Below, one piece after another: positions 4,950 to 19,884 of a DNA stretch of 20,000 nucleotides. Source of the DNA: an uncultured virus (IMG/VR IMGVR_UViG_3300021440_000019) (taxonomy: Duplodnaviria > Heunggongvirae > Uroviricota > Caudoviricetes); IMG/VR virus record IMGVR_UViG_3300021440_000019; one strand, 5' to 3'. Both the position numbers and the translations under genes were made by a program. The notes under the pieces are model-generated. The model searched no databases and was not told where the DNA came from. It was given only the letters and a program-made list of their open reading frames with translations. Within the stretch, counting starts at the first letter, position 1. Each line of letters opens with the position of its first letter.

Positions 4950-5360
4950 ATGTTGAACCGTCGTCTCTTTCTCCGAGGGGCTGCACTGGCACTAGCAGCC
5001 CCTGCCATCGTGCGCGCATCGTCGATCATGCGCGTGACACCGCTGTCGGTGCCCGAAGCTGTTGCTCCGGTGCCGGCTCCGTACACGAAGATCGCAGTGG
5101 ACCCACGAGGACGCGTCACCTCGATGTACACCGGGGAGGTCGGTGTCATAGAGAACTTCCGGGTCATCTGTGACCAAGCTGTGCCGGTGGTCCCGCGCCG
5201 TACCATCCTCGTCACCGGCCAACAGCGCGCGGCTGACAACGGCGTGTACTTCGTGTCCGTGGGACCCACGATGTTCCCCGAGCTTCGTCGCGTTTCCGAC
5301 CCGCGCAAGGTGCTGCGCGTACGTCCCAACCCCTTCAGCCCCGTAGGAGCCTTCGCATAG
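4950..5360 (+). CDS. Tat-signal protein carrying virion-protein-like motifs
   Basis: NRRLFL twin-arginine motif, h-region GAALALAAPAI and a VRA cleavage-like site. The cargo motifs are YTKIAVDPRGRVT, GEVGVIENFRVI and ILVTGQ..ADNGVY. Confidence 0.7.
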   Translation: MLNRRLFLRGAALALAAPAIVRASSIMRVTPLSVPEAVAPVPAPYTKIAVDPRGRVTSMYTGEVGVIENFRVICDQAVPVVPRRTILVTGQQRAADNGVYFVSVGPTMFPELRRVSDPRKVLRVRPNPFSPVGAFA

Positions 5361-5367
5361 GTGACAC

Positions 5368-5868
5368 ATGACGACACCCTCGTACAAGCGCATCCGCATC
5401 CGAGGCTGTTCGTACATCGTGTACAGTTCGGGCTTGATATGGTCGTGCGCATGGAACAAGTATCTGAGCGCACACCAAGACAAAGACGGGTACAGCATCG
5501 TCTGGATGGGAGGTAAGAAGCGTAAGGTGCATCGAGTTGTGTGCCGAGCCTTTCACGGTACGCCGCCAGAAGGGTACGTAGCCCGCCACAAGAATGGAGA
5601 CACCTCGAACAACAGAGCCTCCAACCTTCAATGGGGTACGACATCGGACAACGAACGTGACAAGTGGAGGCATGGCACGCACAACAAGGGCTCCCGTCAT
5701 GGTAGAAGTCACCTGACGGAAGACATCGTGCTGCGGCTCCGGGCTCTGGTAAAGAAACAACCACCCGGTACCAAGACGGCATTTCTGAAGAGGCAAAGTC
5801 AGAAGTACGGAGCTTCGTGGCAAGCAATAGGACACGCCTGCGCTGGCAGAACGTGGACGCACATCTGA
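5368..5868 (+). CDS. HNH homing endonuclease (HNH_3 type, free-standing)
   Basis: KVHRVVCRAFHG...RHKNGDTSNNRASNLQWGTTSDN, plus a C-terminal helix-turn-helix-like DNA-binding tail. Confidence 0.9.
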   Translation: MTTPSYKRIRIRGCSYIVYSSGLIWSCAWNKYLSAHQDKDGYSIVWMGGKKRKVHRVVCRAFHGTPPEGYVARHKNGDTSNNRASNLQWGTTSDNERDKWRHGTHNKGSRHGRSHLTEDIVLRLRALVKKQPPGTKTAFLKRQSQKYGASWQAIGHACAGRTWTHI

Positions 5869-5877
5869 GAGGTTCAC

Positions 5878-6426
5878 ATGATCTTCAAGTTCACCCGCCG
5901 GTACTGCATGGCTCACCGGTTGATTCAAGGAGGGGCGTCTTCCAAATGCGGGATCGTTCATGGACACAACGAACTGGTCATCGTGGAGTGCCGGCCGACG
6001 GCAGAGTTCAAGCCGGGGCCGAACATGAGCATGGACTTCGGGGATGCCAAGTCCGTGTGGCACGACTGGATCGACAACGCGGTGGACCACAGCTTCCAAC
6101 TCGGGGACGAAGACCCGTTGCTGCCGTGGTTCATCGAGAATGAGCCCCACCGGCTGCCGAGAATCATGGTCACTCCGGGCGATCCGACGACGGAAATGCT
6201 GCTGCTGGTGTTCGCACGGAAGTTCCGCGCGTTGTGCGGTTCCGCCCTGGAACTGATCCGCATCACCGTCGAAGAAACCCCGACGAACTCCGTGACCCTG
6301 GACGTTGCCTTCGCATCGCACACACAGAGCTTCGACGACCAGTGGTTGTTGGCGCCCGCCAACGTGGACCACTGGTGGGATCGTCCGGACCTGAGCATCA
6401 ACGACACCCGCGCGGAAAAGCGCTAA
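5878..6426 (+). CDS. queD: 6-carboxy-5,6,7,8-tetrahydropterin synthase (QueD/PTPS family)
   Basis: AHRL...KCGIVHGHN (Zn-binding His residues and catalytic Cys), MDFG, DH, PTTE and EETPTN motifs. Confidence 0.9.
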   Translation: MIFKFTRRYCMAHRLIQGGASSKCGIVHGHNELVIVECRPTAEFKPGPNMSMDFGDAKSVWHDWIDNAVDHSFQLGDEDPLLPWFIENEPHRLPRIMVTPGDPTTEMLLLVFARKFRALCGSALELIRITVEETPTNSVTLDVAFASHTQSFDDQWLLAPANVDHWWDRPDLSINDTRAEKR

Positions 6427-6439
6427 CTGAGGAGCAACC

Positions 6440-7261
6440 GTGAACGCTGTTACCACCCCCGAGGTACCCCTGGTCCCCGTGAACGACTTCGCCGCGTACG
6501 TTCCGCTGGCTACGCGCACGAAGTCGCCAGGGATCATGCGACCCACGTTGACACCACTGGGAGAACCAGTGCTCGGCGACGATGGCAAGCCGAAGACGCA
6601 CTGCATTGCCGCAGGCCCCGTGATCGACTTCTGCCACTTCGTCATCGGCATGAAGTCCGAGTCCGGGGAGACCGTCGGCGATGTCAAGTCCGCGCTGTTC
6701 TACGGCAAGGAGTTCAACGTCGCCAACTTCTACGGGGAACTCGGTGACCTCTGGTGGTACACGGCTGTGGGCGTCTCCGCGTTCAACTCCGTGATGGACA
6801 AGCTGGGGTTCCCGCTGTACACCGTGAACGTGGACGAGTACGTCGGCCAAGCGCAGGGCTTCGCGCGCAAGCTCGTCACTGGTGCTGGTGACCAGCGTCT
6901 GTTCTCGGGACTCACGCTTGTGGACGAATGGGCCACGAAGCTCATGCACGTGGTGTGCGAAATCCGTGTGGAACTGCCGATCTGGCACCACACGGAGTGG
7001 GCGTTAGAACGAGAAGACGCTGCACGGCTGTCCATCCAGGTGCAGCAAACGGTGGCCGCCCTCGTCGGACTCAGCGCTGCGTTCTACGACATGGAGCGGC
7101 AACACGTTGTCCCGGGGCTGCAAGACACGTGGGCACGGAACATCCGCAAGCTGCGAATCCGCTACCCCGATGCGTTCTCCACGGTACTCGCCATCGAACG
7201 GGGTACGCAAGCTCAGGAGCTGGCAGCGCTCGGCGAGGGTACCGCAAGTGTGGAGCCGTGA
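6440..7261 (+). CDS. MazG-like nucleotide pyrophosphohydrolase (extended)
   Basis: IGMKSESGETVGDVKSALFYGK...GELGDLWWY and C-terminal NIRKLRIRYPDAF. GTG start with RBS GAGGAG. Confidence 0.8.
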   Translation: MNAVTTPEVPLVPVNDFAAYVPLATRTKSPGIMRPTLTPLGEPVLGDDGKPKTHCIAAGPVIDFCHFVIGMKSESGETVGDVKSALFYGKEFNVANFYGELGDLWWYTAVGVSAFNSVMDKLGFPLYTVNVDEYVGQAQGFARKLVTGAGDQRLFSGLTLVDEWATKLMHVVCEIRVELPIWHHTEWALEREDAARLSIQVQQTVAALVGLSAAFYDMERQHVVPGLQDTWARNIRKLRIRYPDAFSTVLAIERGTQAQELAALGEGTASVEP

Positions 7262-7837: not shown

Positions 7838-8665
7838 TCACACGCGGAAGATCACGCCCTCTGGTCCGAACACGATGCCGAGGTCTGCGCCCGTGATGTT
7901 CGAGCGCTCCATGTCCGTGAGGTACACGCGCCGGACTTCGTTCTTGGCGATCATGCCCTTGATGAAACCGATGCAGGCACCTCGGTACTTCTCGACGACC
8001 CCTTGGTTCGCTTTGCCCTTCAGTTGCTTCAGGTGCTTCGTTTCCGGATCGTACTCGATGGTTGCGTGCGGCTGATCGTTGCCATCGCGCAGGCTGAAGA
8101 TGTGGATTTCTCCTGCTTCGACCCTTCGCGTGTACGACATGCCTTCGTTGCCGACGCAGTGACCCATGAACGCGCTCTCGTTGCGCAGCGCCTTGGCGGT
8201 CTTGAGATCCCACCATGCGTAGCCGTTGCCGTAGCGGTGCACCAGCGTTTTGTCTTCTTCCTTCTCGGTCACCCGTTCTTCCACACGGGTGCGCTCGATG
8301 GCTCGGTGTCCTTCGGTCACCGCACGGTCGAACTTCACGGTGTTCAACTGCTTGATCCCCGAGGCTTGCAACGCCAGTAGATACGCGGTGCACGCATCCA
8401 CGTCCTCACGGAACTGCTGGAAGTCGTTGTCCTCGGGGTCGAACTCGTACACGAGAACGCCAGCCGGAAACGCCTTGAGCATCCACGGCTTACTCCGGTA
8501 CTCGCGCATGAGGTCGGTCACGGTAAGCCGACGGAAGGCAGCAACCTCCGTCAGCAACCACTTCTTCCCCACAGTCTTGATCCACTCGCCGATCTTCGGG
8601 TTCTTGTCCCGTGCGAGTTCCTCCAGCGCGGCGTCCAATGTTTCCGGGTTGCTCACGTTCTTCAT
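7838..8665 (-). CDS. PcfJ-like domain protein
   Basis: LRNESAFMGHCVG...IFSLRD...PHATIEY...QLKGKAN signature. RBS GAGG. Confidence 0.8.
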   Translation of the reverse strand: MKNVSNPETLDAALEELARDKNPKIGEWIKTVGKKWLLTEVAAFRRLTVTDLMREYRSKPWMLKAFPAGVLVYEFDPEDNDFQQFREDVDACTAYLLALQASGIKQLNTVKFDRAVTEGHRAIERTRVEERVTEKEEDKTLVHRYGNGYAWWDLKTAKALRNESAFMGHCVGNEGMSYTRRVEAGEIHIFSLRDGNDQPHATIEYDPETKHLKQLKGKANQGVVEKYRGACIGFIKGMIAKNEVRRVYLTDMERSNITGADLGIVFGPEGVIFRV

Positions 8666-8689
8666 CGTTGATCCCTCGTTACGGAGGCA

Positions 8690-9538
8690 TCATGGAGTGC
8701 CCCACTTGACAATTGCTTGAACCGGACCTGTGGGAGCTTCCGCAGCGGCAACCGGTGCCGCCGGTGCTTCCGCAGCAGCCTTCGCACCGGTCACTCGACG
8801 GATCACCCACATGTCATCGACGAGACGCCTGGGGTCCGTGAACCAGTCCTGCGTCATCTTGTAGTACCCGAGCATGCCCCACCGCCGACCCCACGAGTTG
8901 CGGACCCACACGAACGGCTTGCTCGGGCGATCGTCGTAACCCGCTGCCATCACCGCGTGGCCCCCGAGCAACTGTTCTTCCAGCGTCGGAAGCTCCAGAA
9001 CCCAAGGGCTGCTCAAAGCGTCGAACTTCTCCGGCACTGCGAAACCGAACACCACGGGGTGCCCGTCAGCCAGCGACTGCTTGAGCCCCATGAGTGTGGA
9101 CACTCGTGCGTACTCGAAGCCTGCGGTGAGCAGCGCACGGAGCGCGGTAGCTTCGTCATACGCCTTGGCTGCCGGCTTTTCCGCGTACCGCTGAGGCACG
9201 TACGGCCACGAACGCTCGGTGGCAACGCCCGTGCGGAAGAAGCTCTTGATGACGCTGCGGATCATCGCGCCGCCGTCTTCGTTCACGTCGCCTTCCGCTT
9301 CACGGCCGTTGTAGTACGCCATCAGCCGGGATAGCTGCGTGCCGGCCGTCACGATTTCCACAGCGGACGTGCTGGCGTTGCCCGTGCACGAACCCAACTG
9401 ACCCTGATCTTCGATGGGGTTGCCCATGCCGATGCGGTCCACAAATCTCGGCAGCGGTCGGTCAGGCTTTACCGCTGCATAGCGGTCACGGTGGTCGGGT
9501 ACATCGGGCTTCCAGGTGTAGTAACGCTTGCTCATCAT
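8690..9538 (-). CDS. papain-like cysteine peptidase (family C1)
   Basis: DQGQLGSCTGN (oxyanion Gln and catalytic Cys), GGHAV (His) and VRNSWG (Asn). The start was moved to ATG 9538, which follows GGAG. Confidence 0.92.
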   Translation of the reverse strand: MMSKRYYTWKPDVPDHRDRYAAVKPDRPLPRFVDRIGMGNPIEDQGQLGSCTGNASTSAVEIVTAGTQLSRLMAYYNGREAEGDVNEDGGAMIRSVIKSFFRTGVATERSWPYVPQRYAEKPAAKAYDEATALRALLTAGFEYARVSTLMGLKQSLADGHPVVFGFAVPEKFDALSSPWVLELPTLEEQLLGGHAVMAAGYDDRPSKPFVWVRNSWGRRWGMLGYYKMTQDWFTDPRRLVDDMWVIRRVTGAKAAAEAPAAPVAAAEAPTGPVQAIVKWGTP

Positions 9539-9588
9539 CGACTCCAAGGGGTTAAGGGGAGCCTCGAAGGCGAACGTACCCGAAGGTG

Positions 9589-9891
9589 CTAAACAGTGGT
9601 GTTCGGCGACGTACTGGAGATAGCCCCCACGAAGTCACCGGACACCGGATCACCAAGTCGCGCTGCGGGCAACCCGTTGACGTTCACGCTGGTGTCGCCA
9701 CCGACGATGCTCGCGCTGTGCCCACAGTCAGTGACCACAGGGTCACCAAGTCGCGCTGCGGGCAACCCGTTGACGTTGACGTTGGGTGAACCACCGACGA
9801 TGGACGCGCCGACCACGATAGGATTCTCGTGCGCAGGGTGGAAACAGGTGCCGCTACACCTATCAAATAAGCGAGCCGCTGAAATTCCCAA
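9589..9891 (-). CDS. PAAR-domain protein (contractile-tail spike tip)
   Basis: AARLFD plus two NVNGLPAARLGDP repeats, with Cys/His metal ligands. TTG start after GGAGG. Confidence 0.92.
   Translation of the reverse strand: MGISAARLFDRCSGTCFHPAHENPIVVGASIVGGSPNVNVNGLPAARLGDPVVTDCGHSASIVGGDTSVNVNGLPAARLGDPVSGDFVGAISSTSPNTTV
9650..9777. repeat. 35-bp exact direct repeat inside the PAAR gene
   Basis: TCACCAAGTCGCGCTGCGGGCAACCCGTTGACGTT at 9650-9684 and 9743-9777. Confidence 0.85.
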
Positions 9892-10958: not shown

Positions 10959-11310
10959 AGGGCGCCCAATGCGTTGGGTAGAACACGCTGCCGGATTCAG
11001 CACACCAGCCTTCGGTGTACGCACCGTCGGCAGCGCTCTCGAAGAACCCACGGACTTCGACCACGGTGCCGCCGGGATCACTCGCGTACGTGCCCCGAAG
11101 CCACAGCACAGCACCGTGGACTTGCGGAGCGCTGGCAATCCCACGGAAGTCCCACGGCAGACCATGGAGCTTGCGGTACGCGAGGTCTGTTGCGGCCCAC
11201 TGCTGCTCCACGAGCGCGGCTACCGCAGGCGTTTGCTTTGCGGTCATCAACTCGTGCAGCACCGTACCCGGCGCCACCAGGGTGTCCTTGTACTTCAGGT
11301 ACGTCTTCAC
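10951..11310 (-). CDS. hypothetical protein with DUF551-like C-terminus
   Basis: Ends in PTHWAP, as in the 'THW.P' tail of DUF551 proteins. GTGA coupling with the upstream gene. Confidence 0.6.
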   Translation of the reverse strand: MKTYLKYKDTLVAPGTVLHELMTAKQTPAVAALVEQQWAATDLAYRKLHGLPWDFRGIASAPQVHGAVLWLRGTYASDPGGTVVEVRGFFESAADGAYTEGWCAESGSVFYPTHWAPYV

Positions 11311-11501
11311 GCTCGCTCCAGCCGGATGTAGTGCTCTCCGTACCCGTCAGCTAGGCAGACGTTGCCGGTTACCTCAGGGCCCTTGCCATCGGCGTCGAAC
11401 CCCGTAGAACCGAGCGCGGCATCCACGAGCTTGGACTCCTCTTCGGTGGGCAGCAGCACCAGGATCTTCCGGCCATCGAAGTCACGGATTTGAACTTGCA
11501 T
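11307..11501 (-). CDS. small hypothetical protein
   Basis: ATG at 11501 after GGAGG; 64 aa; coupled to both neighbours. Confidence 0.65.
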   Translation of the reverse strand: MQVQIRDFDGRKILVLLPTEEESKLVDAALGSTGFDADGKGPEVTGNVCLADGYGEHYIRLERA

Positions 11502-11937
11502 ATGCACCTCCAGGGGTTGTTCGTAACTTGGGCGCGAACGTAAGGACCATGTAGCTAGAGAGCCTTACGGGTTTCCACATCACCATCAAGCCGATGAGCC
11601 CGGTGTCGATCACGGACATCGGGTTGTTGCGGGCGTCACAGACGACCAGCGCATCGTGGATGTCTCGACGTTGCTTGTACGGCGCCAGCAACGCTTCCAT
11701 CTGCGTTCTCAACTCGGTCCTCAACAGGTCATCTTGAGGATCCCACGCATGCGTTTCCAGGAAACTCAAGTACAGTTCGGTCACGTTGTCAGCGATGGCA
11801 CGACTCGTCTTTAGAACGCGCACGGGGTCCGCAGGTGTGCTGCCTGGAGTGGCTTGCACATCAGGGGACACTGCGGCACCTGCTTTCGGTACGAGTATCG
11901 AAATGGAGAGGGCTTTGAGGAGGTCACGTCTTTTCAC
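11482..11937 (-). CDS. Tat-signal-like peptide fused to a tail-sheath C-terminal domain
   Basis: GTG at 11937 after AAGGT gives MKRRDLLKALSISILVPKAGA. The segment WDPQDDLLRTELR...LLAPYKQRRDIHDALVVCDARNNPMSVIDTG...KPVRLSSYMVLTF matches the sheath C-terminal pattern (FEPND..TR......FL......I.DF.VVCDE.NN...VID.......KP.....I.L.F). Confidence 0.75.
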   Translation of the reverse strand: MKRRDLLKALSISILVPKAGAAVSPDVQATPGSTPADPVRVLKTSRAIADNVTELYLSFLETHAWDPQDDLLRTELRTQMEALLAPYKQRRDIHDALVVCDARNNPMSVIDTGLIGLMVMWKPVRLSSYMVLTFAPKLRTTPGGAYASSNP

Positions 11938-11957
11938 TAAGGCACCTTGGTGTCGGG

Positions 11958-12143
11958 TTATCGTATGTCCTTGCGGTACTCTACGGGCACGTCGCGGTAT
12001 GGCATGTATCTGATGAACGTGAAGCCCGTTGATGTTCGCACGCGAACGCTGACGAACAACGGGCTGGTGTACACGTCGTCCGGCCAGGGTTGAACTTCGC
12101 GCCATTTCTTGCGTGCGCGCTGCACGCCCTCGACGGTAATCAT
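11958..12143 (-). CDS. small hypothetical protein
   Basis: 61 aa; ATGA overlap with the ligase stop. Confidence 0.55.
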   Translation of the reverse strand: MITVEGVQRARKKWREVQPWPDDVYTSPLFVSVRVRTSTGFTFIRYMPYRDVPVEYRKDIR

Positions 12144-13981
12144 AGCCCGTACTTTCGGCGGAACTGCTCCGCCGTGAGGATTCTCGTGCCGAGTGCTCGG
12201 GCAGCACCGAGCTTGGAACTACTGCCACTGGGATCTTTCGCCAGCAGCACCGTTGCGGTCTTCACCGATGTCGCCAGTGTGCCTCCGTTGCGGAGCACCA
12301 GTTCTTCGAGTTCGGCATCGCGGAACCCCGTGAACAGCACGGAGACGCCTCGGAGCTTCGAGCCGGTGGCACGTGCCTTCTTCTCGACCTCGTACGCGAG
12401 CTTCGTGGACGCCGCGAACCGCGCGAACTTCGGCAGCGCGTGCGCGAACGCGTAAGCCTGTTTCACATCGAACCCTGGGATCTCGTCCACAAGGTGCTGG
12501 AGCTTGGCAACGGGCCACAGCGCGTAGTCCATGATCTTCGGATGCGCTGTGCAGATGGCCCCGAGCTTGCGGCTGCCGAATGCGCGACCGAACAAGCCAG
12601 AGGCGTACATCAACGTGTGCAGCCACACACCGTCGGTCTTCAGCCGCTGTACGTCCTGGTACACGACGTGGCTCAGCCGCGAGACACCTTCGACCTCGGT
12701 GAACTGCTTCTCGGTCATGCGCAGGATCTTCTGCGGTGTGTCGAATCCCGCCCGGATGTACTTGGCAACGGTGGCCGGCTTGAACCGGTCAATGCCGAGC
12801 ACCGTGAAGAAGTGGGACAATCGCATGGACAGCACGGACTCGACCCCGGCGACACCGGAGGCTGGCTTGATGTTCGCTCCGTCCCACACGTGGTCTTTCG
12901 GCCACTTGAGCTTTCCGGGCTTCAGCACGTCTTCCGCGCGGATGTCGGGGATCACATCGCCGGACCTCCGGAGCTTGATGACCGCACCCGGACCGATACC
13001 GTTGTCCCTGACGAACGCAGCGGACTTGGCGGACGCATAGGTCACGGTAGCGCCCTTGAGCACCACGGGTTTGACCTCGATCCTTGGGAAGTACCACCCG
13101 GTTCTCGTGAGGTTCCACTGCACATCGACCACTGTGGTCTTCGCTGAGTCGTCCTCTGTGTCGGACTTGAACGCGACCACGTGGTCAGGATCACCCTTGC
13201 TGATACCGGTCTTCACGTCCTGCGCGATCACCAAGCCATCGACTTCGTACCCGGTGTTGGCCCTGGCCGCTTGCAGCAGCGCCAGTAGCTTCTCTTCGGT
13301 CAACGCGGGGAACACCTTGAACGGCGCCACGTCGTACCCCAAGGACTTGAGCTTGGCGAACGCGGCACTCGGCTTCAACCGGGGCACCAGCAGTTCGTAT
13401 GCGAGGTACGTCACGTCCTTGGTAGCCGGGTGCACGGTCTTGACGTTGGTTAGCCCACCAACCATGTTCCGGGGGTTAGCGTACTCGTGCCCGTACTTGG
13501 CCGTGAACGTCGTGTTGCGCATCACGAGTTCACCACGGACCACGAAGTCACCCTTGGGCTCTGGCAGCTTCTTCAGATGCGGCACCAGATGGCTGATGTC
13601 TCCACCGTGTGTGCCCGACGATCGACCCCGCGTGTACAGCTTGCGGCGTGCCGGCACATGCAGGCCGCTGATGCCGTCGATCTTCCACGACACGCAGTAC
13701 GGCCCTGGATGGTCAGCGAGCCACTGACCGACGCCGCCGGTCAGGTACTTGATCTTCGTCAGCGACGGCATCGGGAACGGCAGCTTCACCTTGAGCTTGG
13801 TTGTCGGGTCTGCCCCACTGTGCTTGAGCACCGGATGATCCGGGTTCACGGCACGCAGCGCTTCTTCCAGCGCGTCGTAGTCCCTGTCGGTCATGATCGG
13901 GAGCCCACGGTAGTACGCACCGCGAGCACGCTCGATCTGCTTCGCCATTGCGCCTTCGGTCATCGCAGCCAGCACTTTCAT
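12140..13981 (-). CDS. ligA: NAD-dependent DNA ligase
   Basis: Domain Ia (YY...TDRDYD), KIDG adenylation motif, VRGE, NPRN, EVDGLVI, AFK, OB-fold RSGDVIP, HhH region and C-terminal BRCT (VLFTGFRD...SSKL..A..LG). Confidence 0.93.
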   Translation of the reverse strand: MKVLAAMTEGAMAKQIERARGAYYRGLPIMTDRDYDALEEALRAVNPDHPVLKHSGADPTTKLKVKLPFPMPSLTKIKYLTGGVGQWLADHPGPYCVSWKIDGISGLHVPARRKLYTRGRSSGTHGGDISHLVPHLKKLPEPKGDFVVRGELVMRNTTFTAKYGHEYANPRNMVGGLTNVKTVHPATKDVTYLAYELLVPRLKPSAAFAKLKSLGYDVAPFKVFPALTEEKLLALLQAARANTGYEVDGLVIAQDVKTGISKGDPDHVVAFKSDTEDDSAKTTVVDVQWNLTRTGWYFPRIEVKPVVLKGATVTYASAKSAAFVRDNGIGPGAVIKLRRSGDVIPDIRAEDVLKPGKLKWPKDHVWDGANIKPASGVAGVESVLSMRLSHFFTVLGIDRFKPATVAKYIRAGFDTPQKILRMTEKQFTEVEGVSRLSHVVYQDVQRLKTDGVWLHTLMYASGLFGRAFGSRKLGAICTAHPKIMDYALWPVAKLQHLVDEIPGFDVKQAYAFAHALPKFARFAASTKLAYEVEKKARATGSKLRGVSVLFTGFRDAELEELVLRNGGTLATSVKTATVLLAKDPSGSSSKLGAARALGTRILTAEQFRRKYGL

Positions 13982-14578: not shown

Positions 14579-15745
14579 TCAACCGGTAGTCGGGGGTTCC
14601 GTCGGGGAACCGTTGGAATACGCCGACAGGTGTCTGCGCAGCCGCTCCAGCACTGCGCGCCCGGTTGTGTCTCGGAGTCCGAGGTACTCCAAGGCGAGTT
14701 TCATGAAGCGTTGGTTCGCCGCGCGCTCCAGATACTCCGAAGAACTGCTGCGAATCCCGTGTGTCGTGCTCAGCCATTGGTTGAACTCCTTGTCTTCGTA
14801 CCCCATGAACAACGCGATCAGCCGTTGCTTCTTGGACAGCCGTAACTCCGGTGGCACGGGTGTGCCCATCGGTGGAAACAGCACCCTGTGGTCAACATGC
14901 GCGGTGCCCTTGGGGAACAGATTGAATGCGCGTCCGATGTCGATCACGCGGTCCCTGTTCTCTCGTTCGTCAGGTGCGTGCAACTCGTGCGTCTCTGTCA
15001 GGTCGTGAATGGCAACGACCTTGTTCGTAAACGTGTCGCCTTCGCGGACAACACGTGCACGCTTCTCGTGCGTCTGTTGGATTATCAGGTTGATCCCGAA
15101 GTTGTGCGCGGCTGACTTGACGATGTTCGTCGCGTGCAGCAGGCTCTCAACCTTCGGGTACGTGAGGTACAGTGCGTGTACGCCCTTGGCGAACACCTGC
15201 ATTGCCATGTCGTGCGCTTGCAAGCCCTGCTGCTGGTACACGAACCTCATCTTCCGATGCACGAACTTGCCGAGCCAGTCACGCATCCTCTGGTGGATCG
15301 TCACGATGTGCCTGTCGAAGCACGAGAGCGTCAGCGCAGGATACCGCAACGCCGTCTTCTTCAACGCCGTGAGCAACGCCGGAGACATCAGCAGTCGCAG
15401 GCACGTGTCTGCTTCACGCACGTTGAATGCTGGTGCGACCTTCGCTGCGGTAACGCCGCGTAGCCCACGCTTGACGCACCAGAACAGCCAGCACTTCACC
15501 TCCTTGACGACGTACCCGGAGTCCGTGATGGCTTTCCACATCGCCTTGTAGTCGAGGGAACCGAACGCGGAGCGCGCTTGCACCTGTAGTTGCTTGTACG
15601 TCGTGTGCCTGAAGATCGTGCTCAGCATCATCTGCACCCACTGCTGCTGCTTGTACTTCGGCAGCGTCAGGAACCTTGGGTCAGCCTCGCCACTGAGCTT
15701 CGTAACGATGTCGCACTCACGTGCGTTCGATTGTGAACGACCCAT
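14579..15745 (-). CDS. hypothetical protein, possibly a divergent sigma-factor-like transcription factor
   Basis: 388-aa basic, helical ORF. The segment 'KFVHRKMRFV...HDMAMQVFAKGVHALYLTYP...NIVKSAAHNFGINLIIQQTHEKR' loosely follows sigma region 2. The function is weakly supported. Confidence 0.55.
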   Translation of the reverse strand: MGRSQSNARECDIVTKLSGEADPRFLTLPKYKQQQWVQMMLSTIFRHTTYKQLQVQARSAFGSLDYKAMWKAITDSGYVVKEVKCWLFWCVKRGLRGVTAAKVAPAFNVREADTCLRLLMSPALLTALKKTALRYPALTLSCFDRHIVTIHQRMRDWLGKFVHRKMRFVYQQQGLQAHDMAMQVFAKGVHALYLTYPKVESLLHATNIVKSAAHNFGINLIIQQTHEKRARVVREGDTFTNKVVAIHDLTETHELHAPDERENRDRVIDIGRAFNLFPKGTAHVDHRVLFPPMGTPVPPELRLSKKQRLIALFMGYEDKEFNQWLSTTHGIRSSSSEYLERAANQRFMKLALEYLGLRDTTGRAVLERLRRHLSAYSNGSPTEPPTTG

Positions 15746-16502
15746 CTTTGCCCCTTGTCAGCGTCTTCTTCATCTTGGCCTTGGTCTTGGCGTCCGCGAT
15801 CTTCTTCGACTTCTTGATGTTGCCGGTGATCGCATGCATCGCCTCTTCCTTGAAGAGCTTGACGCGACGCTTGTCTAGCCAGTGCTGTGGCACGGAATCG
15901 AGTGATGGGGGCACATACTCGGCGGGTTTGACGGCCAGGGTGTCACGGTACGCGAGCCACTCGTCTCGGGGCATCTGCAACTCGTCGTACAGCGTCGGCC
16001 TGCCGTTCTTCTTCGGCTCGATGACGCGGTTTGCGCTGATGAGCGAGCGCTTGCGCTTCTCCCACTTGGCGAACGTCAGCACGGACTCGGGCATCAACGT
16101 GACCATGGTGTTGCCGTCACCGTCACGCAGCGACGAACTGACGTACACGAACTGCTTGTCCTTGGACACGCTGACGATGCGTCCTCGGAAGTAGTTCTGC
16201 ACGTACTCCTGGCCGACGCAGAAGTACACCGGCTGGCCGAACTCGTAGCCGGCTTTCTGGAGGTAGGAGCCACCTCTGATAGCCATTGCCATGACTTGCA
16301 GTTCGGGGTCCCGCATGGAGCGGAACAGCAGTCGCATGACCTTGAGTACGTTCTGATGTGCTGAGGCCAGAAGCGTTGGGTCCGGCACGTACAGTTCGCA
16401 GGCGGTTGCGGTTGCAAGCACACCGAGCTTGATGCACGGTTTCTTCGCTGACGCGTGAGGGACCTTCTCGTGGTGAATGCACGACTGGCACTTGTTTGGC
16501 AT
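15717..16502 (-). CDS. hypothetical protein with N-terminal Cys cluster and SH3-like middle
   Basis: CQSCIHH...C....C cluster and a Lys-rich C-terminus. The start is either ATG 16502 or GTG 16541. Confidence 0.7.
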   Translation of the reverse strand: MPNKCQSCIHHEKVPHASAKKPCIKLGVLATATACELYVPDPTLLASAHQNVLKVMRLLFRSMRDPELQVMAMAIRGGSYLQKAGYEFGQPVYFCVGQEYVQNYFRGRIVSVSKDKQFVYVSSSLRDGDGNTMVTLMPESVLTFAKWEKRKRSLISANRVIEPKKNGRPTLYDELQMPRDEWLAYRDTLAVKPAEYVPPSLDSVPQHWLDKRRVKLFKEEAMHAITGNIKKSKKIADAKTKAKMKKTLTRGKDGSFTIERT

Positions 16503-16543
16503 TGAGAGGGCTGACCCTCCTTCTTCTCTTTTCAATTGCACGG

Positions 16544-16984
16544 CTACTCGCTCCTCTTTAGCGGTTGGACTTGTGTGGCATACAGGAATTCGATTGCGGC
16601 TTCCATAGCCGCTTGGTCACTCCGCAAGTGCGGGTGCATCGCCCTATACGCATTCCACATGCGCTGATGGACGATACCGAATTTGAATGCCTTGTTCACG
16701 GGTTTCTCGACGTTGACCACGGCGAGGAAACTCGTGTAGATCACTTGGGTCAGGTACTGGAGTTTGCGGACTTGTGCGGCATCGCCGCTGAACCTCCTTG
16801 CGTGTGGTGGATGAAAGGCTTCGACGTGGATGACTGCGTGGTGGCGAGCGCAAAGGGAAACCGTTGGCCCGTGCAGACCTCCACACGACTTGGGAACTAG
16901 ATGGTGGTCGTGAAGACCGTCATCACTAGGGCATACCCAACAACGGTCAAGTGCTATGGTTTTCGTGATCGGGATGTCAGACAT
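16544..16984 (-). CDS. HNH endonuclease (Zn-finger, McrA-like)
   Basis: CWVC...HDHHLVPKSCGG...LCARHHAVIH. Confidence 0.85.
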   Translation of the reverse strand: MSDIPITKTIALDRCWVCPSDDGLHDHHLVPKSCGGLHGPTVSLCARHHAVIHVEAFHPPHARRFSGDAAQVRKLQYLTQVIYTSFLAVVNVEKPVNKAFKFGIVHQRMWNAYRAMHPHLRSDQAAMEAAIEFLYATQVQPLKRSE

Positions 16985-17014
16985 ACTGTGTACGCCTGTG
17001 TAGGTATTGTGTCA

Positions 17015-17102
17015 CGCAGCGGAGGAAACGTACTTCCGTGGTCAAACCCTGAGCTAAGAGGAGTAAGCACCCAGGATACGGCAGTACGTTTTCTTCGCTG
17101 CG
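17015..17102. other. long imperfect inverted repeat / structured leader RNA
   Basis: 17015-17039 is complementary to 17078-17102 at 22 of 25 positions, and there is an inner stem CCTGAG/CCCAGG. Confidence 0.7.
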
Positions 17103-17113
17103 CTGCTGCATTC

Positions 17114-17142
17114 ATTTTACCCGATTGACGTTGCCGTGTCAA
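17114..17142 (-). promoter_or_regulatory. sigma70-type promoter
   Basis: TTGACA-17 bp-TAAAAT on the - strand, in an intergenic gap. Confidence 0.85.
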
Positions 17143-17153
17143 CCCCGTGCTGG

Positions 17154-17384
17154 CTAGCCCGATTCGGGTGCCATCGCACGGCCAATGAGCCGTAGCCCGC
17201 ATCGTCTGCACCTGAAGGCCCGAGCGCAGCACTCAAGCGCGCCGGCTTGCCCTCTGTGACAGTCCCATTCTCGTCGTTCTTCCCCGGTGGTACTGACTCG
17301 CTCCGCGTACCCATTGCAAGTGCAGCACACAACGTCGGCTTCGCGGTCCACGACTTCCGCCAGGATCATCGTCGTTTCGGTCAT
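17154..17384 (-). CDS. small Cys-rich Zn-ribbon protein
   Basis: CCTC...C...CC...CRRC; ATGA coupling at 17381-17384. Confidence 0.65.
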   Translation of the reverse strand: MTETTMILAEVVDREADVVCCTCNGYAERVSTTGEERREWDCHRGQAGALECCARAFRCRRCGLRLIGRAMAPESG

Positions 17385-18430
17385 CGCCGTGTGGGCCTTG
17401 TCTCTTTGCCGAACGGCAGACCCCACTCACGCACAGGGGCACCCAGCGCTTCGACGCTGGCACGTGGCAGCGCCCAGTACAGTGAGAAGCCAGCGAGCAT
17501 GTTGTTGCCGATGCGCTGCTTGCCTTCGGCGCCGGCGAGCACGACCTTGGTGCCGCCGTGCTTGCGCTCGTAGCTCGTCATCATCTTCTCGATGTAGCCC
17601 TGCTCGTCACCTTCCCACGTCTCGTCCGCTGCGAGCACTCGTTGGTTCACGCACCAGATGTCCTGGTCATGCAGCACGATGTAGTCGCCGTCGGCAGTCA
17701 CCTCGAAGCCCTCGGCGTCGAGGTCTGCTGCGCGCACTGGCCGAGAGAACAGCGCGATCACCGGGCACCGCACCACGGTCATCCGCCGCTTGTCCGCGAC
17801 ACCCGGGAACTTCGCACGGTACTTCAGGTACTTCGAGAAGTGGTTGACAGGCAGGTCCGCCAGCGAAGTCGATTCCACCACGGTTGCGGATGCGCCTTCC
17901 AGATGGGTCACCACGTCTGCGAGCCGGCCGAGCACGAGTCCTCGCGTGTTCTTCAGCGTCCGCCGATCCAAGTCGGCGCTCGCGTTCGCTTCGTGCAAGG
18001 ACTGCACGGCGTTGGCGATCCATCGGGCTGACGCTACAGCACGACGGTCGTCAACTCCGTTCTTGTACTTGAGCCGGGCTGCCACGGCTTCCGCAGTCTC
18101 CCGTGCGAGCACCCGTGCGCGAAGCAACCTCGTGGCCGCGTCGTCGGTCCCGATGATCGTGGTTCGCAGCGCGGTGACCGCTTGATGCAACTTCGCTGTC
18201 GGCACCGGCACTGCCTTGGTCAATGGCGCGGTCGGCTGCCCAAGCAACGGCACGGCGGAAGCCGCGTCCACGAACGTCAGCCCCGTGTCGAGTTCGGGTT
18301 CGCGTAGCGCGACGACGCGCTCGGTCTTGGCCGGAGGCGCGTTCCACGTCGGTGCCGGCTTGCGCTTCTTCACGACCACGACGCCTGAGAGCACAAGGTC
18401 AGCCAGTTGTTCCTTCAGGGTCCGCGTCAT
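17381..18430 (-). CDS. hypothetical protein (349 aa)
   Basis: Start at ATG 18430 (MTRTLKEQL) with RBS AAGGA, overlapping the topoisomerase stop (ATGA). Confidence 0.75.
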   Translation of the reverse strand: MTRTLKEQLADLVLSGVVVVKKRKPAPTWNAPPAKTERVVALREPELDTGLTFVDAASAVPLLGQPTAPLTKAVPVPTAKLHQAVTALRTTIIGTDDAATRLLRARVLARETAEAVAARLKYKNGVDDRRAVASARWIANAVQSLHEANASADLDRRTLKNTRGLVLGRLADVVTHLEGASATVVESTSLADLPVNHFSKYLKYRAKFPGVADKRRMTVVRCPVIALFSRPVRAADLDAEGFEVTADGDYIVLHDQDIWCVNQRVLAADETWEGDEQGYIEKMMTSYERKHGGTKVVLAGAEGKQRIGNNMLAGFSLYWALPRASVEALGAPVREWGLPFGKETRPTRR

Positions 18431-19884
18431 GAGAGTTCCTTCAACAGGGTTTGCAGGTGGCGCACGACGTACGCATTGGGTTTGGCCTTGCGCTGCTCGT
18501 ACTCGGCGCGCAACGCCTTCAGCTTCTTGAGTTCCGCGACCAGCTTGTCGTCTTCCAGCGCCTTGAGTTGCCGGACGCGAAGTTCGAGAATGGACTTGGC
18601 TTCGTCCACTGTGACCTTCAACGCCTTGGCGAGGTACGCTGCCAGTTGCTCGTCGTCCAGCTTCTGGTCCAGCGCGCGAATGATCGTGGCTCGGTTCGCC
18701 ACGGCAATCCTGAGCACCGTGACCCGCCGAATCTCTTTGTCCTTGATGTCGATCTGGTACGCGCACGCTGAGACTTCGAGCTTGACACGGTATGCCGCCC
18801 ACTTGTTCAGCAACTCGGGCACCGTGGTGGACCTCAGTGCGATGGACGGCTCGTCGGGCACTTCCGAGTTCGCTGTGCGAATCGTGACGTTCACGAAGTA
18901 CAACTCGGACTCGCGGAGCTTGGCTGCCAGCCTCGCGGCAACTTCGCTCACGTTCTTGACATCGACTCGCGGCCTCAGGTACGCTGTGAACTCGCCGATG
19001 CGCTGTCCACGGGAGCTCGTGTCCGACGTGGACTGCACGTCAGGATCAGCCGCGAGCTTCTCGGCGCGTGCATCAAAATTACTGAAGGGTGCGAACCCCG
19101 TGAACGTGATGCTCTTGTCCTTGACGTTGATCCGGTACGGTGAGTCGTACACGAGCGTGGCTTTGCCCGTCGTGAACAACTCGCGCACGAGCTTGCCCTG
19201 CTTCGGCGCGAGCACGCCACCGAACTGCGTGCAGAACACGAGGGACGCTGCGCACGACTCGGCAGTCGCCGGTGTTCCGCGCAGCACGGGGATCAACGTG
19301 TTGACCACGGACTCCATCGTGAACTTCGGGATCTTCGCAGTGAGGCCCACGCCGATGGCGAAGGTCGTGTTGAACAGGATGTTCGGCAGCAGCGAGTGCA
19401 GGTACAGGGGTTCACGGTCCTTGCTGTCGTAGTTGCTGACGAATCGAGTGAGTGGGAGGTAGAACGGGTCGAAGAACACGAGTTCGCTGAACTTCGAGAG
19501 CCTGACGTTCGTGTACCTCGGCGCTGCGAACCCCTTGGGATTCGCGAACGACCCGAAGTTGCCCTCGCCGTCGAGTAGCGCGTACCGCGCGGTCACCATG
19601 TTCACGATGGCCCCGTAGCACGCGAGGTCGCCGTGCGGATGGAACTTGCCGAGCGTGTCGCCGACGAGCCTCGCCGACTTCTCCACGGCTTTTCCGTGTC
19701 GGTAGCCGCCGGTATACGCTGCCCACAGCACTCGTCGCTGCACGGGCTTGCATCCGTCGTGGTACTCGGACACCGCGCGGTCCTCGTTCACGGACGTGGC
19801 GTAGCGGATCATCTGCTTGTGTGCGAAGCCCGAGAGGTCGATCTCCTTGATCTTCTCTTTCACGGGCGTATCAGGTTTCGTCAT
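18427..19884 (-). CDS. type IIA DNA topoisomerase subunit A (GyrA/ParC-like, lacking the C-terminal pinwheel)
   Basis: DGCKPVQRR, KSARLVGDTLGKFHPHGD, GNFG, AAPRYT (catalytic Tyr) and LPNILFN; only 485 aa. Confidence 0.93.
   Translation of the reverse strand: MTKPDTPVKEKIKEIDLSGFAHKQMIRYATSVNEDRAVSEYHDGCKPVQRRVLWAAYTGGYRHGKAVEKSARLVGDTLGKFHPHGDLACYGAIVNMVTARYALLDGEGNFGSFANPKGFAAPRYTNVRLSKFSELVFFDPFYLPLTRFVSNYDSKDREPLYLHSLLPNILFNTTFAIGVGLTAKIPKFTMESVVNTLIPVLRGTPATAESCAASLVFCTQFGGVLAPKQGKLVRELFTTGKATLVYDSPYRINVKDKSITFTGFAPFSNFDARAEKLAADPDVQSTSDTSSRGQRIGEFTAYLRPRVDVKNVSEVAARLAAKLRESELYFVNVTIRTANSEVPDEPSIALRSTTVPELLNKWAAYRVKLEVSACAYQIDIKDKEIRRVTVLRIAVANRATIIRALDQKLDDEQLAAYLAKALKVTVDEAKSILELRVRQLKALEDDKLVAELKKLKALRAEYEQRKAKPNAYVVRHLQTLLKELS

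What the first reader, a model, noticed from the sequence alone, without database searches (positions are those of the whole stretch)
11482..11937. Stand-alone tail-sheath C-terminal domain behind a twin-arginine leader, outside any tail operon
Seen: about 100 aa matching the sheath C-terminal pattern (VVCDARNN..VID, KPVR...LTF) in a 151-aa ORF among small genes downstream of the DNA ligase. Established: true sheath proteins are several hundred residues long, and this domain forms the inner, tube-contacting, polymerising layer. Inference: a dominant-negative inhibitor of contractile-tail (or T6SS/tailocin) assembly, or a decoy for a sheath-sensing defence. The hydrophobic region is short, so export is less certain than for 4950-5360. 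The track's longer start at 12228 hides the signal.
Basis: partly seen in the sequence, partly recalled or inferred. Interest (0 to 1): 0.7.

Follow-up and report, generated by a model that had tools for sequence, protein, structure and literature searches.

The report
Exported mini tail-sheath protein of phage
An uncultured giant phage carries a small gene that joins a bacterial export signal to the inner core piece of a contractile tail sheath, a rare and undescribed design whose job (perhaps blocking rival injection devices in the cell envelope) is untested.

Summary
Window 11482-11937 (-) is a real 151-aa gene. Residues ~33-136 are the core domain of a contractile tail sheath (PHROG sheath profile E 1.6e-8; T4-like gp18 residues ~537-644; AlphaFold core pLDDT above 90; Z 9-10.6 to solved sheaths). 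The N- and C-terminal donor arms and all outer domains are missing. Residues 1-21 look like a twin-arginine (Tat) signal.

The gene is not a one-off fragment. An exhaustive search found 32 small relatives, and 23 of them start with the same leader. A profile of those leaders picks this gene's GTG start as the best of 1,123 possible starts in the window.

The phage is a PaBG/Motura-like jumbo myophage. The gene sits with ligase, topoisomerase and small unknown genes, not with tail genes.

No cultured phage has the leader-bearing form. Achromobacter phage Motura has a leaderless 111-aa version.

The function is inferred only. My preferred reading is that the protein is exported to the periplasm and acts on incoming tail tubes, as an exclusion factor. 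A cytoplasmic role in sheath assembly remains a serious rival, because this member's hydrophobic stretch is short and alternative starts exist. Two earlier notes of this scan describe the same design in other phages.

The parts
11482..11937 (-). mini-sheath gene, 151 codons plus stop (P0001)
   Evidence: ORF list and translation. Codon-usage log-odds is positive only in this frame: 0.229 against -0.31 and -0.45.
11943..11948 (-). SD-like AAGGTG, 5 nt before the GTG start
   Evidence: Read from the sequence.
11875..11937 (-). predicted Tat-type signal peptide, aa 1-21: KRRDLLK motif, short h-region aa 9-17, c-region with Lys and an A-x-A-type site
   Evidence: Family alignment has R4 invariant and R3 in at least 90% of rows. 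Leader-profile scan ranks it 1 of 1,123. Candidate -3/-1 cleavage sites after aa 21, 22, 29 and 32. Export itself is not shown.
11842..11874 (-). Pro/Thr/Ala-rich linker, aa 22-32, with low model confidence
   Evidence: pLDDT blocks of 50-57 for aa 11-30.
11530..11841 (-). sheath core domain, aa 33-136: two long helices and a three-stranded sheet
   Evidence: AF2 elements H38-62, H70-89, E93-99, E117-123, E130-134, with pLDDT 92-98 over aa 41-100. Foldseek and VIA-align matches to sheath chains over model residues 33-137. HMM and alignment matches.
11482..11529 (-). short disordered C-terminal tail (aa 137-151) and stop; no equivalent of the long sheath C-tail
   Evidence: pLDDT 40-49. Relatives end 0-20 residues after the last strand.
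11869..11871 (-). alternative GTG start (codon 23), also preceded by AGGTG plus 5 nt
   Evidence: Sequence. The ESM Atlas record begins here.
11821..11823 (-). alternative GTG start (codon 39), used by another gene call (113 aa)
   Evidence: P0002.
11958..12143 (-). 61-aa ORF between ligase and mini-sheath; overlaps the ligase stop and ends 20 nt before the mini-sheath start
   Evidence: GC3 0.74; codon score 0.356.
11307..11507 (-). next small ORF (64-66 aa). Its GGAGG and ATG lie inside the last codons of the mini-sheath gene, suggesting translational coupling.
   Evidence: codon score 0.459.
12140..13981 (-). NAD-dependent DNA ligase, upstream gene of the same strand block
   Evidence: phrog_3869 E 1.9e-106; Pfam ligase domains.

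Best explanation
The gene encodes a pre-protein made of a Tat-type signal peptide, a short flexible linker and the ~100-residue inner core domain of a contractile tail sheath. In real sheaths this domain accepts the N- and C-terminal arms of neighbouring subunits and lays a helix on the tail tube. The protein has no donor arms of its own and no outer domains. It belongs to a rare, fast-diverging family of phage accessory genes with the same design.

Shown here: the gene is real, it has the domain and the fold, the leader resembles those of the family, and the gene lies among replication and small unknown genes of a PaBG/Motura-like jumbo myophage.

Inferred: the protein folds in the cytoplasm, is exported by the host Tat pathway and is cleaved. 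In the periplasm it binds something that normally meets the inside of a sheath. The simplest candidate is the bare tail tube (or Hcp-like tube) of an incoming contractile phage, tailocin or T6SS. The infected cell would thereby be protected from superinfection or killing.

My odds: about 0.85 for the architecture and family, about 0.6-0.65 that this particular member is exported, and about 0.25 for the tube-binding exclusion role. The confidence given is for the package.
For: Domain: PHROG sheath profiles; T4-like sheath C-termini; model pLDDT 80.8 with a core above 90; Foldseek top hits are sheaths; VIA-align Z 10.6-9.0 over ~80-90 residues to eCIS and phage sheaths.

Family: the exhaustive HMMER search gave 45 hits. 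One is the window's own shorter gene call, 12 are full-length sheaths and 32 are small proteins. Of the 32 small ones, 23 start with [RK]R within 12 residues followed by an uncharged stretch.
- All 24 aligned members match phrog_23.
- 17 of 24 match PF17482 and 7 of 24 match Pfam TAT_signal.
- 5 of 24 match TIGR01409.
- 24 of 26 have RR-x-hydrophobic-hydrophobic, and 26 of 26 have a -3/-1 site.

This member's leader: rank 1 of 1,123 starts against the relatives' leader profile. With the 11937 start the gap to the upstream ORF is 20 nt, like the tight packing of the whole block. The other starts give gaps of 86 or 134 nt.

What the domain does in sheaths: in myophage A-1(L), sheath domain II holds the N-tail and C-tail of neighbours and its helix alpha10 lies on the tube; the sheath initiator has the same fold (PMC10966104, section 9 read). 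The conserved sheath core faces the tube (PMC9230969, passages).

Context: the gene lies between NAD ligase/topoisomerase II and small unknown ORFs, not among late tail genes. The same phage has a second Tat-like leader ORF at 4950-5360.

Precedent for periplasm-side blocks of DNA entry: T4 Imm binds the tape measure protein (bioRxiv 10.64898/2026.03.06.709160, abstract only); the HXS system (PMC13128918, start of the abstract in the search listing; one methods passage read).
Against: - This member's hydrophobic stretch is only 9 uncharged residues, against 14-29 in 21 of the 23 leader-bearing relatives scored.
- Neither Pfam TAT_signal nor TIGR01409 hits it.
- Two other GTG starts exist. One has an equally good AGGTG upstream, and other gene calls used them.
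- Leaderless small relatives exist: 9 of the 32 small hits and the 111-aa Motura protein. The core domain can therefore presumably work without export.
- The small proteins have lost conservation at positions that sheaths keep in strands 2-3 and the C-tail. Their median net charge is -2, against +2.5 for full-length sheath cores. Tube or arm binding may not be retained.
- GC3 (0.64) and codon score (0.23) are lower than in the neighbours (0.72-0.81; 0.36-0.46).
- No expression, export, timing or binding data exist, and early timing is guessed from the neighbours only.
Confidence: 0.35

Rival explanations
1. Cytoplasmic modulator of sheath assembly. The protein, or an isoform from the internal GTG starts, stays in the cell. 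Because it can accept sheath arms but cannot donate any, it caps, nucleates or poisons sheath polymers. The targets could be the phage's own sheath (length or timing control), a co-infecting myophage's, or the host's T6SS or tailocin.
For: The fold also matches the sheath initiators gp25 (Z 7.8) and TssE (Z 7.0) (Foldseek rank 12). The initiator uses this fold to hold the arms of the first sheath ring (PMC10966104). This member keeps sheath-conserved residues in strands 2-3 (P123, R125, F134) that most relatives lost. Leaderless relatives exist, including Motura's 111-aa protein and a 224-aa PaBG protein with the core motif. The h-region is short and alternative starts exist.
Against: The leader is conserved in 23 of 32 small relatives, and this gene's N-terminus matches their profile better than any other start in the window. 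Gene packing favours the long form. No GPW_gp25 or other baseplate family hit. The gene is not in a tail module.
Confidence: 0.25
2. Exported or membrane-tethered protein with a target other than tubes. Examples are an uncleaved signal anchor that places the domain at the inner membrane, or a domain re-used for an unrelated envelope interaction. The same fold serves as the anti-adaptor IraD in E. coli.
For: IraD matches at Z 7.7, which shows the fold is re-used for non-tail roles. There is strong divergence and loss of sheath-specific conserved positions in the family. The charge is shifted relative to sheaths.
Against: The core motifs shared with sheaths (ND..TR, VVCD..NNPP) stay nearly invariant in the family, which suggests a retained sheath-type function. 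All 26 leaders have plausible signal-peptidase sites and only 1 has a lipobox-like motif.
Confidence: 0.17
3. Decaying fragment of a sheath gene with no function.
For: Codon adaptation is lower than in the neighbours. No close homologue was found anywhere (best 33-41% identity). Gene callers disagree on the start.
Against: The frame is intact, with an SD-like site and coupling to the next gene. The fold is modelled with confidence. The architecture is conserved in dozens of lineages with invariant core residues. A leader is not something a 3' gene fragment would carry.
Confidence: 0.06
4. Decoy for a host defence that senses sheath protein.
For: Only the resemblance to a sheath domain.
Against: No call or paper seen here reports a sheath-sensing system. 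A cytoplasmic decoy would not carry an export leader.
Confidence: 0.04

Closest known systems
Contractile tail sheath proteins (T4 gp18 and relatives; Pfam PF04984 + PF17482)
   Same: Residues ~33-136 are homologous in sequence and fold to the C-terminal core domain. The ND..TR and VVCD..NN motifs are shared.
   Different: It has 151 aa, against at least 321 aa for the smallest sheaths modelled in PMC9230969. It lacks the N-terminal half of the core, the outer domains, and the N-tail and C-tail donor arms. It carries an export leader and is encoded away from tail genes.
Sheath initiators T4 gp25 / T6SS TssE (Pfam PF04965)
   Same: Small stand-alone proteins (~125-135 aa) with the same core fold, which accept the arms of sheath subunits (Z 7.8 and 7.0; PMC10966104).
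   Different: No sequence match to PF04965. gp25 and TssE are cytoplasmic baseplate parts without a leader, and are encoded in baseplate modules.
Periplasm- or envelope-side exclusion factors (T4 Imm and Sp; the bacterial HXS system)
   Same: The proposed logic is the same: a small protein placed in the envelope that stops genome delivery by a tailed phage (abstract; search listing, start of the abstract, plus one methods passage). Sp is recalled from memory and was not seen in a call.
   Different: There is no homology. Those proteins are not built from a virion domain, and nothing shows that this protein excludes anything.
Leaderless mini-sheath of Achromobacter phage Motura (QDH83656.1, 111 aa, 'hypothetical protein')
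   Same: A stand-alone sheath core in a related jumbo myophage, lying within a run of small unknown genes.
   Different: It has no leader and is very divergent (37% identity over 52 aligned residues to the window's core domain; end branch 3.25 on the tree). No homologue was found in other cultured phages.

Membership tests
Contractile tail sheath protein | [quoted passage not shown] | tested here: not met
   151 aa; no PF04984 hit. Only the C-terminal part aligns. The smallest sheaths modelled were 321-341 aa (PMC9230969).
Contractile tail sheath protein | N-tail and C-tail arms that insert into neighbouring subunits | tested here: not met
   The N-terminus is a leader plus linker. Only 15 low-confidence residues follow the last strand, against a 45-residue C-tail in A-1(L) gp9.
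Phage_sheath_1C domain (PF17482) | Match to the Pfam model | tested here: inconclusive
   No hit for this protein at E<=10. However, 17 of 24 aligned relatives hit it, best 1.3e-14, and PHROG sheath profiles hit this protein at E 1.6e-8.
Phage_sheath_1C domain (PF17482) | Fold of the sheath core (two helices packed on a small sheet) | tested here: met
   AF2 core pLDDT above 90. Z 9-10.6, rmsd 1.6-2.4 A over 80-89 residues to solved sheaths.
Tat (twin-arginine) signal peptide | RR-x-hydrophobic-hydrophobic(-K) motif near the N-terminus | tested here: met
   KRRDLLK at aa 2-8; R4 invariant and R3 in at least 90% of the family alignment.
Tat (twin-arginine) signal peptide | Moderately hydrophobic h-region of typical length, then a c-region with an A-x-A site | tested here: inconclusive
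   Only 9 uncharged residues before a Lys. Candidate sites follow aa 21, 22, 29 and 32. The typical h-region length is recalled from memory, not taken from a call.
Tat (twin-arginine) signal peptide | Match to curated Tat-signal models (PF10518, TIGR01409) | tested here: not met
   No hit for this protein. 7 of 24 and 5 of 24 relatives hit.
Tat (twin-arginine) signal peptide | Tat-dependent export of the folded protein | not testable with these tools
   Needs a reporter or fractionation experiment.
gp25/TssE sheath initiator (PF04965) | Sequence match to GPW_gp25 and a location in a baseplate module | tested here: not met
   No Pfam hit. The neighbours are a ligase and small unknown ORFs. The fold resemblance is only Z 7.0-7.8.
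Leader-bearing mini-sheath family (undescribed; defined here) | 108-185 aa; N-terminal RR leader; sheath core with invariant C-D..N-N; no arms | tested here: met
   Alignment A1; leader profile; best relatives are P0003 and P0004 at 38-40% identity over the core.

The most novel reading that the evidence does not exclude
Phages repurpose the tube-facing core of their own tail sheath as a secreted weapon. A Tat-exported mini-sheath coats or jams the naked tubes of rival contractile injection devices (myophages, tailocins, T6SS) in the periplasm of the infected cell. This would be a new class of exclusion factor built from a virion part.
Probability: 0.2. Interest if true: 0.85.

Novelty: new variant of a known kind. 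Interest (0 to 1): 0.6.

Why it matters
Sheath proteins are known only as cytoplasmically assembled structural polymers. A conserved family that detaches the tube-facing, arm-accepting core and gives it a folded-protein export signal implies that this domain has a second job outside the cytoplasm. No search or passage seen here describes such a job.

If that job is binding incoming tubes, it would be a new and simple way to block contractile injection. It would also be a useful tool against tailocins and T6SS.

The present case adds three things to the two earlier notes of this scan. It extends the design to PaBG-like jumbo phages. It shows a second Tat-type leader gene in the same phage. It points to a leaderless homologue in a cultured phage (Motura) that can be tested at the bench.

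Tried and rejected
- **Own contig.** No whole genome is held. An exact 40-mer from the window start was found in neither viral contigs nor metagenome contigs.
- **Close relatives.** None turned up with the mini-sheath protein in viral contigs, nor with the ligase in viral contigs or metagenome contigs. No dN/dS test was possible.
- **Genomic context of other leader-bearing members was not obtained.**
  - The best 80 IMG/VR loci from the family alignment A2 are all sheath ORFs of 170-945 aa, the shorter ones cut by contig ends.
  - The 22 IMG/VR loci found with P0047 are sheath ORFs of 190-1,124 aa.
  - The 77 GTDB loci kept (of 131 confirmed) from alignment A3 are sheath ORFs; the complete ones are at least 275 aa.
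  - A degenerate DNA pattern of my own found nothing, but its gap lengths were wrong, so it says nothing.
- **Cultured phages.** tblastn with two family members hit only full-length sheaths: 435 records (40 listed) and 2,530 records (60 listed). The Motura protein has no relatives in the collection.
- **Sequencing runs.** One DNA run held a share of 0.07 of the words. Laying it gave a single identical 246-nt contig at 12012-12257. No RNA holder was listed.
- **Complex prediction.** A homotrimer of the mature domain could not be run because the queue was full at every try.
- **Split sheath gene or intron: rejected.** The upstream DNA is the ligase plus a 61-aa ORF in another frame. None of the other 27 window ORFs scanned hits a sheath profile.
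- **Recent copy of the phage's own sheath: not supported, not excluded.** The core is 23-33% identical to the sheaths of seven PaBG-like rows, but 41% identical to three unnamed full-length sheaths that group with them.
- **Single origin of the leader-bearing family: neither shown nor rejected.** In the tree, 17 of 26 leader rows fall in one cluster with SH-aLRT 88. The AU test for one clade gives p 0.117. Long branches make the tree unreliable.
- **P0163 as a second mini-sheath: rejected for now.** Only 15 columns align.

Full report
**The gene.** On the minus strand, a GTG at 11937 opens a 151-codon frame ending at 11482. An AAGGTG lies 5 nt upstream, and the stop of a 61-aa ORF (11958-12143) lies 20 nt upstream. 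That 61-aa ORF overlaps the stop of the NAD-dependent ligase.

The 248-aa reading that starts at 12228 is an artefact. Its extra part has GC3 0.48, whereas the 61-aa ORF in another frame has GC3 0.74. A codon-usage log-odds score trained on 11 long genes of the window is positive only in the stated frame: 0.229 against -0.31 and -0.45. It is lower than for the neighbouring small genes (0.36-0.46). The next gene's GGAGG and ATG lie inside the last codons, so the genes look translationally coupled.

**The sheath domain.**
- PHROG profile phrog_23 (tail sheath) matches aa 66-134 at E 1.6e-8.
- tblastn against 50,697 phage records gives 435 records. The 40 listed hits all fall on the 3' end of T4-like sheath genes at 26-30% identity.
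- phmmer against PDB aligns aa 26-136 with residues 537-643 of a 656-aa sheath, and aligns T4 gp18 residues 541-644.
- Pfam's PF17482 does not hit this protein.
- An AlphaFold model built on the family alignment has mean pLDDT 80.8, with 92-98 over aa 41-100. It shows two long helices and a three-stranded sheet.
- Foldseek's best matches are sheaths of T4-like phages, pyocin and eCIS.
- VIA-align gives Z 10.6-9.0 (rmsd 1.6-2.4 A, 80-89 residues) to sheath chains. The sheath initiators gp25 and TssE score Z 7.8 and 7.0, and IraD scores 7.7. An unrelated enzyme domain also reaches about 7.8, so only the sheath matches stand out.

In myophage A-1(L) this domain ('domain II') holds the N-tail and C-tail of neighbouring subunits and lays helix alpha10 on the tube, and the initiator has the same fold (PMC10966104, section 9 read). 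A survey of modelled sheaths found the smallest to be 321-341 aa, with a core made of both termini and facing the tube (PMC9230969, passages). The window protein is therefore the acceptor, tube-facing core alone. It has no N-tail, and only 15 disordered residues stand where sheaths have a long C-tail.

**The leader and the family.** One is the window's own shorter gene call, 12 are full-length sheaths and 32 are small proteins of 108-238 aa. Of the 32 small ones, 23 begin with [RK]R within 12 residues followed by an uncharged stretch, and 9 do not. Two more leader-bearing members came from the word-index search, whose other hits were mostly fragments of sheath genes on short contigs.

In the 24-row alignment, R4, C100, N104 and N105 are invariant, and R3, D69 and D101 are nearly so. 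Family-library results on those 24 rows:
- 24 of 24 match phrog_23.
- 17 of 24 match PF17482.
- 7 of 24 match Pfam TAT_signal.
- 5 of 24 match TIGR01409.

Of the 26 leader-bearing proteins, 24 have RR-x-hydrophobic-hydrophobic, all 26 have a loose -3/-1 cleavage site, and 1 has a lipobox-like motif.

The window protein itself has KRRDLLK, but only 9 uncharged residues precede a Lys, and it hits neither Tat model. To test its leader without circularity, I built a profile from the 25 other leaders. I then scored all 1,123 start-codon-initiated open 40-codon peptides in six frames of the window. The GTG at 11937 came first (19.4 bits, E 6.5e-5). The start of another ORF at 4950/4953 came second (19.1 bits). 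Everything else scored 5 bits or less.

Against the long form, there are GTGs at codon 23 (also behind AGGTG plus 5 nt) and at codon 39, and other gene calls used both. Those starts would leave gaps of 86 or 134 nt in an otherwise tightly packed block.

**Where it lives.** The window holds the following genes:
- plus strand: portal, head protease, HNH endonuclease, QueD-like and MazG-like genes;
- minus strand: topoisomerase II pieces, ligase, a run of small unknown ORFs, a PAAR protein, a papain-like peptidase and a PcfJ-like protein.

The portal is 34-40% identical to those of jumbo myophages of Proteobacteria, including PaBG, Motura, Yoloswag, Lauda and Vibrio GR11A. One assembly holding a window protein is 229,055 bases long.

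I searched seven such phage records with the family profile. All have full-length sheaths, and PaBG and Yoloswag each have two. Only Motura has a small copy: a leaderless 111-aa 'hypothetical protein' within a long run of small genes. PaBG has a 224-aa protein with the core motif and no leader. The passages found in the PaBG paper do not mention that protein, and it is not among the 14 listed virion bands (PMC7412058, passages).

No leader-bearing member was seen among cultured phages, the IMG/VR loci kept or the GTDB loci kept; all of those were sheath genes. In the ESM Atlas, 21 of 30 feature hits share the PF17482 family set. The rows shown are clusters of 106-148-aa proteins, mostly viral where taxa are recorded. 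I could not see whether these have leaders or are fragments.

**Evolution.** A 78-row tree of the core (106 columns, quick search) is mostly unresolved. In it, 17 of 26 leader rows, including the window's, plus two leaderless small proteins form one cluster (SH-aLRT 88). The other leader rows scatter among sheath lineages.

The small proteins have end branches of 1-2.4 changes per column, against well under 1 for most sheath cores. I left out two loci where my script found no ORF, two small hits without the C-D motif, three of every four complete IMG/VR sheaths, and all but ten GTDB loci. The AU test does not reject one clade of all leader rows (p 0.117).

Pairwise, the window's core is closest to leader-bearing P0003 and P0004 (38-40%) and to three unnamed full-length sheaths that group with PaBG-like sheaths (41%).

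Column by column, the motifs ND..TR and VVCD..NNPP are conserved in both small proteins and sheaths. Positions that sheaths conserve at the start of helix 1, in strands 2-3 and in the C-tail are relaxed in the small proteins. The window protein still keeps several of them (P123, R125, F134). Median net charge of the core is -2 in leader-bearing proteins and +2.5 in T4-like full-length sheaths.

**What it most likely does.** The shown facts are a real gene, a sheath core without arms, a leader of the family's type, and non-tail neighbours. From there I infer export by the host Tat pathway and action in the periplasm.

The only thing known to meet this face of a sheath is the tail tube. The only time a tube is bare in the periplasm is after contraction of an incoming device. 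A role in excluding contractile phages, tailocins or T6SS is therefore the most economical guess.

It parallels envelope-side blocks such as T4 Imm binding the tape measure protein (bioRxiv 10.64898/2026.03.06.709160, outline and abstract only) and the HXS system (PMC13128918, start of the abstract in the search listing, plus one methods passage).

The main rival is a cytoplasmic cap, initiator or poison of sheath polymers. It is favoured by the leaderless relatives, the weak h-region here and the alternative starts. Decay and decoy readings are unlikely.

**Known or new.** Six literature searches and the passages found in a comparative review of 224 jumbo phages turned up no description of a stand-alone or exported sheath domain. 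That review has no occurrence of 'twin-arginine' or 'signal peptide' (PMC7824862). Supplements were not consulted.

Two earlier AI notes of this scan (e1-5411941, e1-5754555) report the same design in a rhizosphere jumbo phage and a T4-like sludge phage, again among replication genes. They agree with my independent result but are not independent evidence of function.

I file this as a new variant of a known kind: a known domain and a known signal, in an undescribed combination and setting.

Noticed in passing
window 4950-5360 (+): A second small ORF (136 aa, P0163) with a textbook-looking twin-arginine leader, lying between head genes and an HNH endonuclease. It ranks second of 1,123 starts against the mini-sheath leader profile. 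It is an orphan: no homologue was found and no usable Atlas hit. Only a 15-column resemblance to the VVCD strand of the family exists.
   Followed up: partly
window 11958-12143 (-): A 61-aa ORF that overlaps the ligase stop and is hidden under the over-long 248-aa gene call. Its codon statistics are good (GC3 0.74; score 0.356). No family hit.
   Followed up: partly
window 7838-9891 (-): A PAAR-motif protein (9589-9891), a papain-family cysteine peptidase (8690-9547) and a PcfJ-like protein (7838-8665) follow the small ORFs on the same strand, away from the head module. This is an odd place for a spike-tip protein.
   Followed up: no
window 5368-7261 (+): HNH endonuclease, QueD-like 6-pyruvoyl-tetrahydropterin synthase and a MazG-like pyrophosphatase lie directly after the head genes. 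This hints at modified-base (queuosine-type) metabolism.
   Followed up: no
L087 1480-1815 (Achromobacter phage Motura, record 202011-202346): QDH83656.1, annotated hypothetical, is a leaderless 111-aa stand-alone sheath core (E 8.9e-10 to the family profile). It is the only such gene found in the seven related cultured jumbo phages searched, and it has no relatives in the phage collection.
   Followed up: partly
L088 / L201 (Pseudomonas phage PaBG, PaBG_00291, record 241632-242306): A 224-aa hypothetical protein carries the sheath-core C-D..N-N motif near its C-terminus (E 1.1e-5), with no leader and an unrelated N-terminal part. PaBG also has its two known full-length sheath genes.
   Followed up: partly
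window 15717-19884 (-): Topoisomerase II appears as separate ORFs: a GyrA/ParC-like ORF at 18427-19884 and a further 'DNA topoisomerase' PHROG hit at 15717-16541, with unknown ORFs between them. PaBG also annotates a short topoisomerase IV subunit A piece.
   Followed up: no
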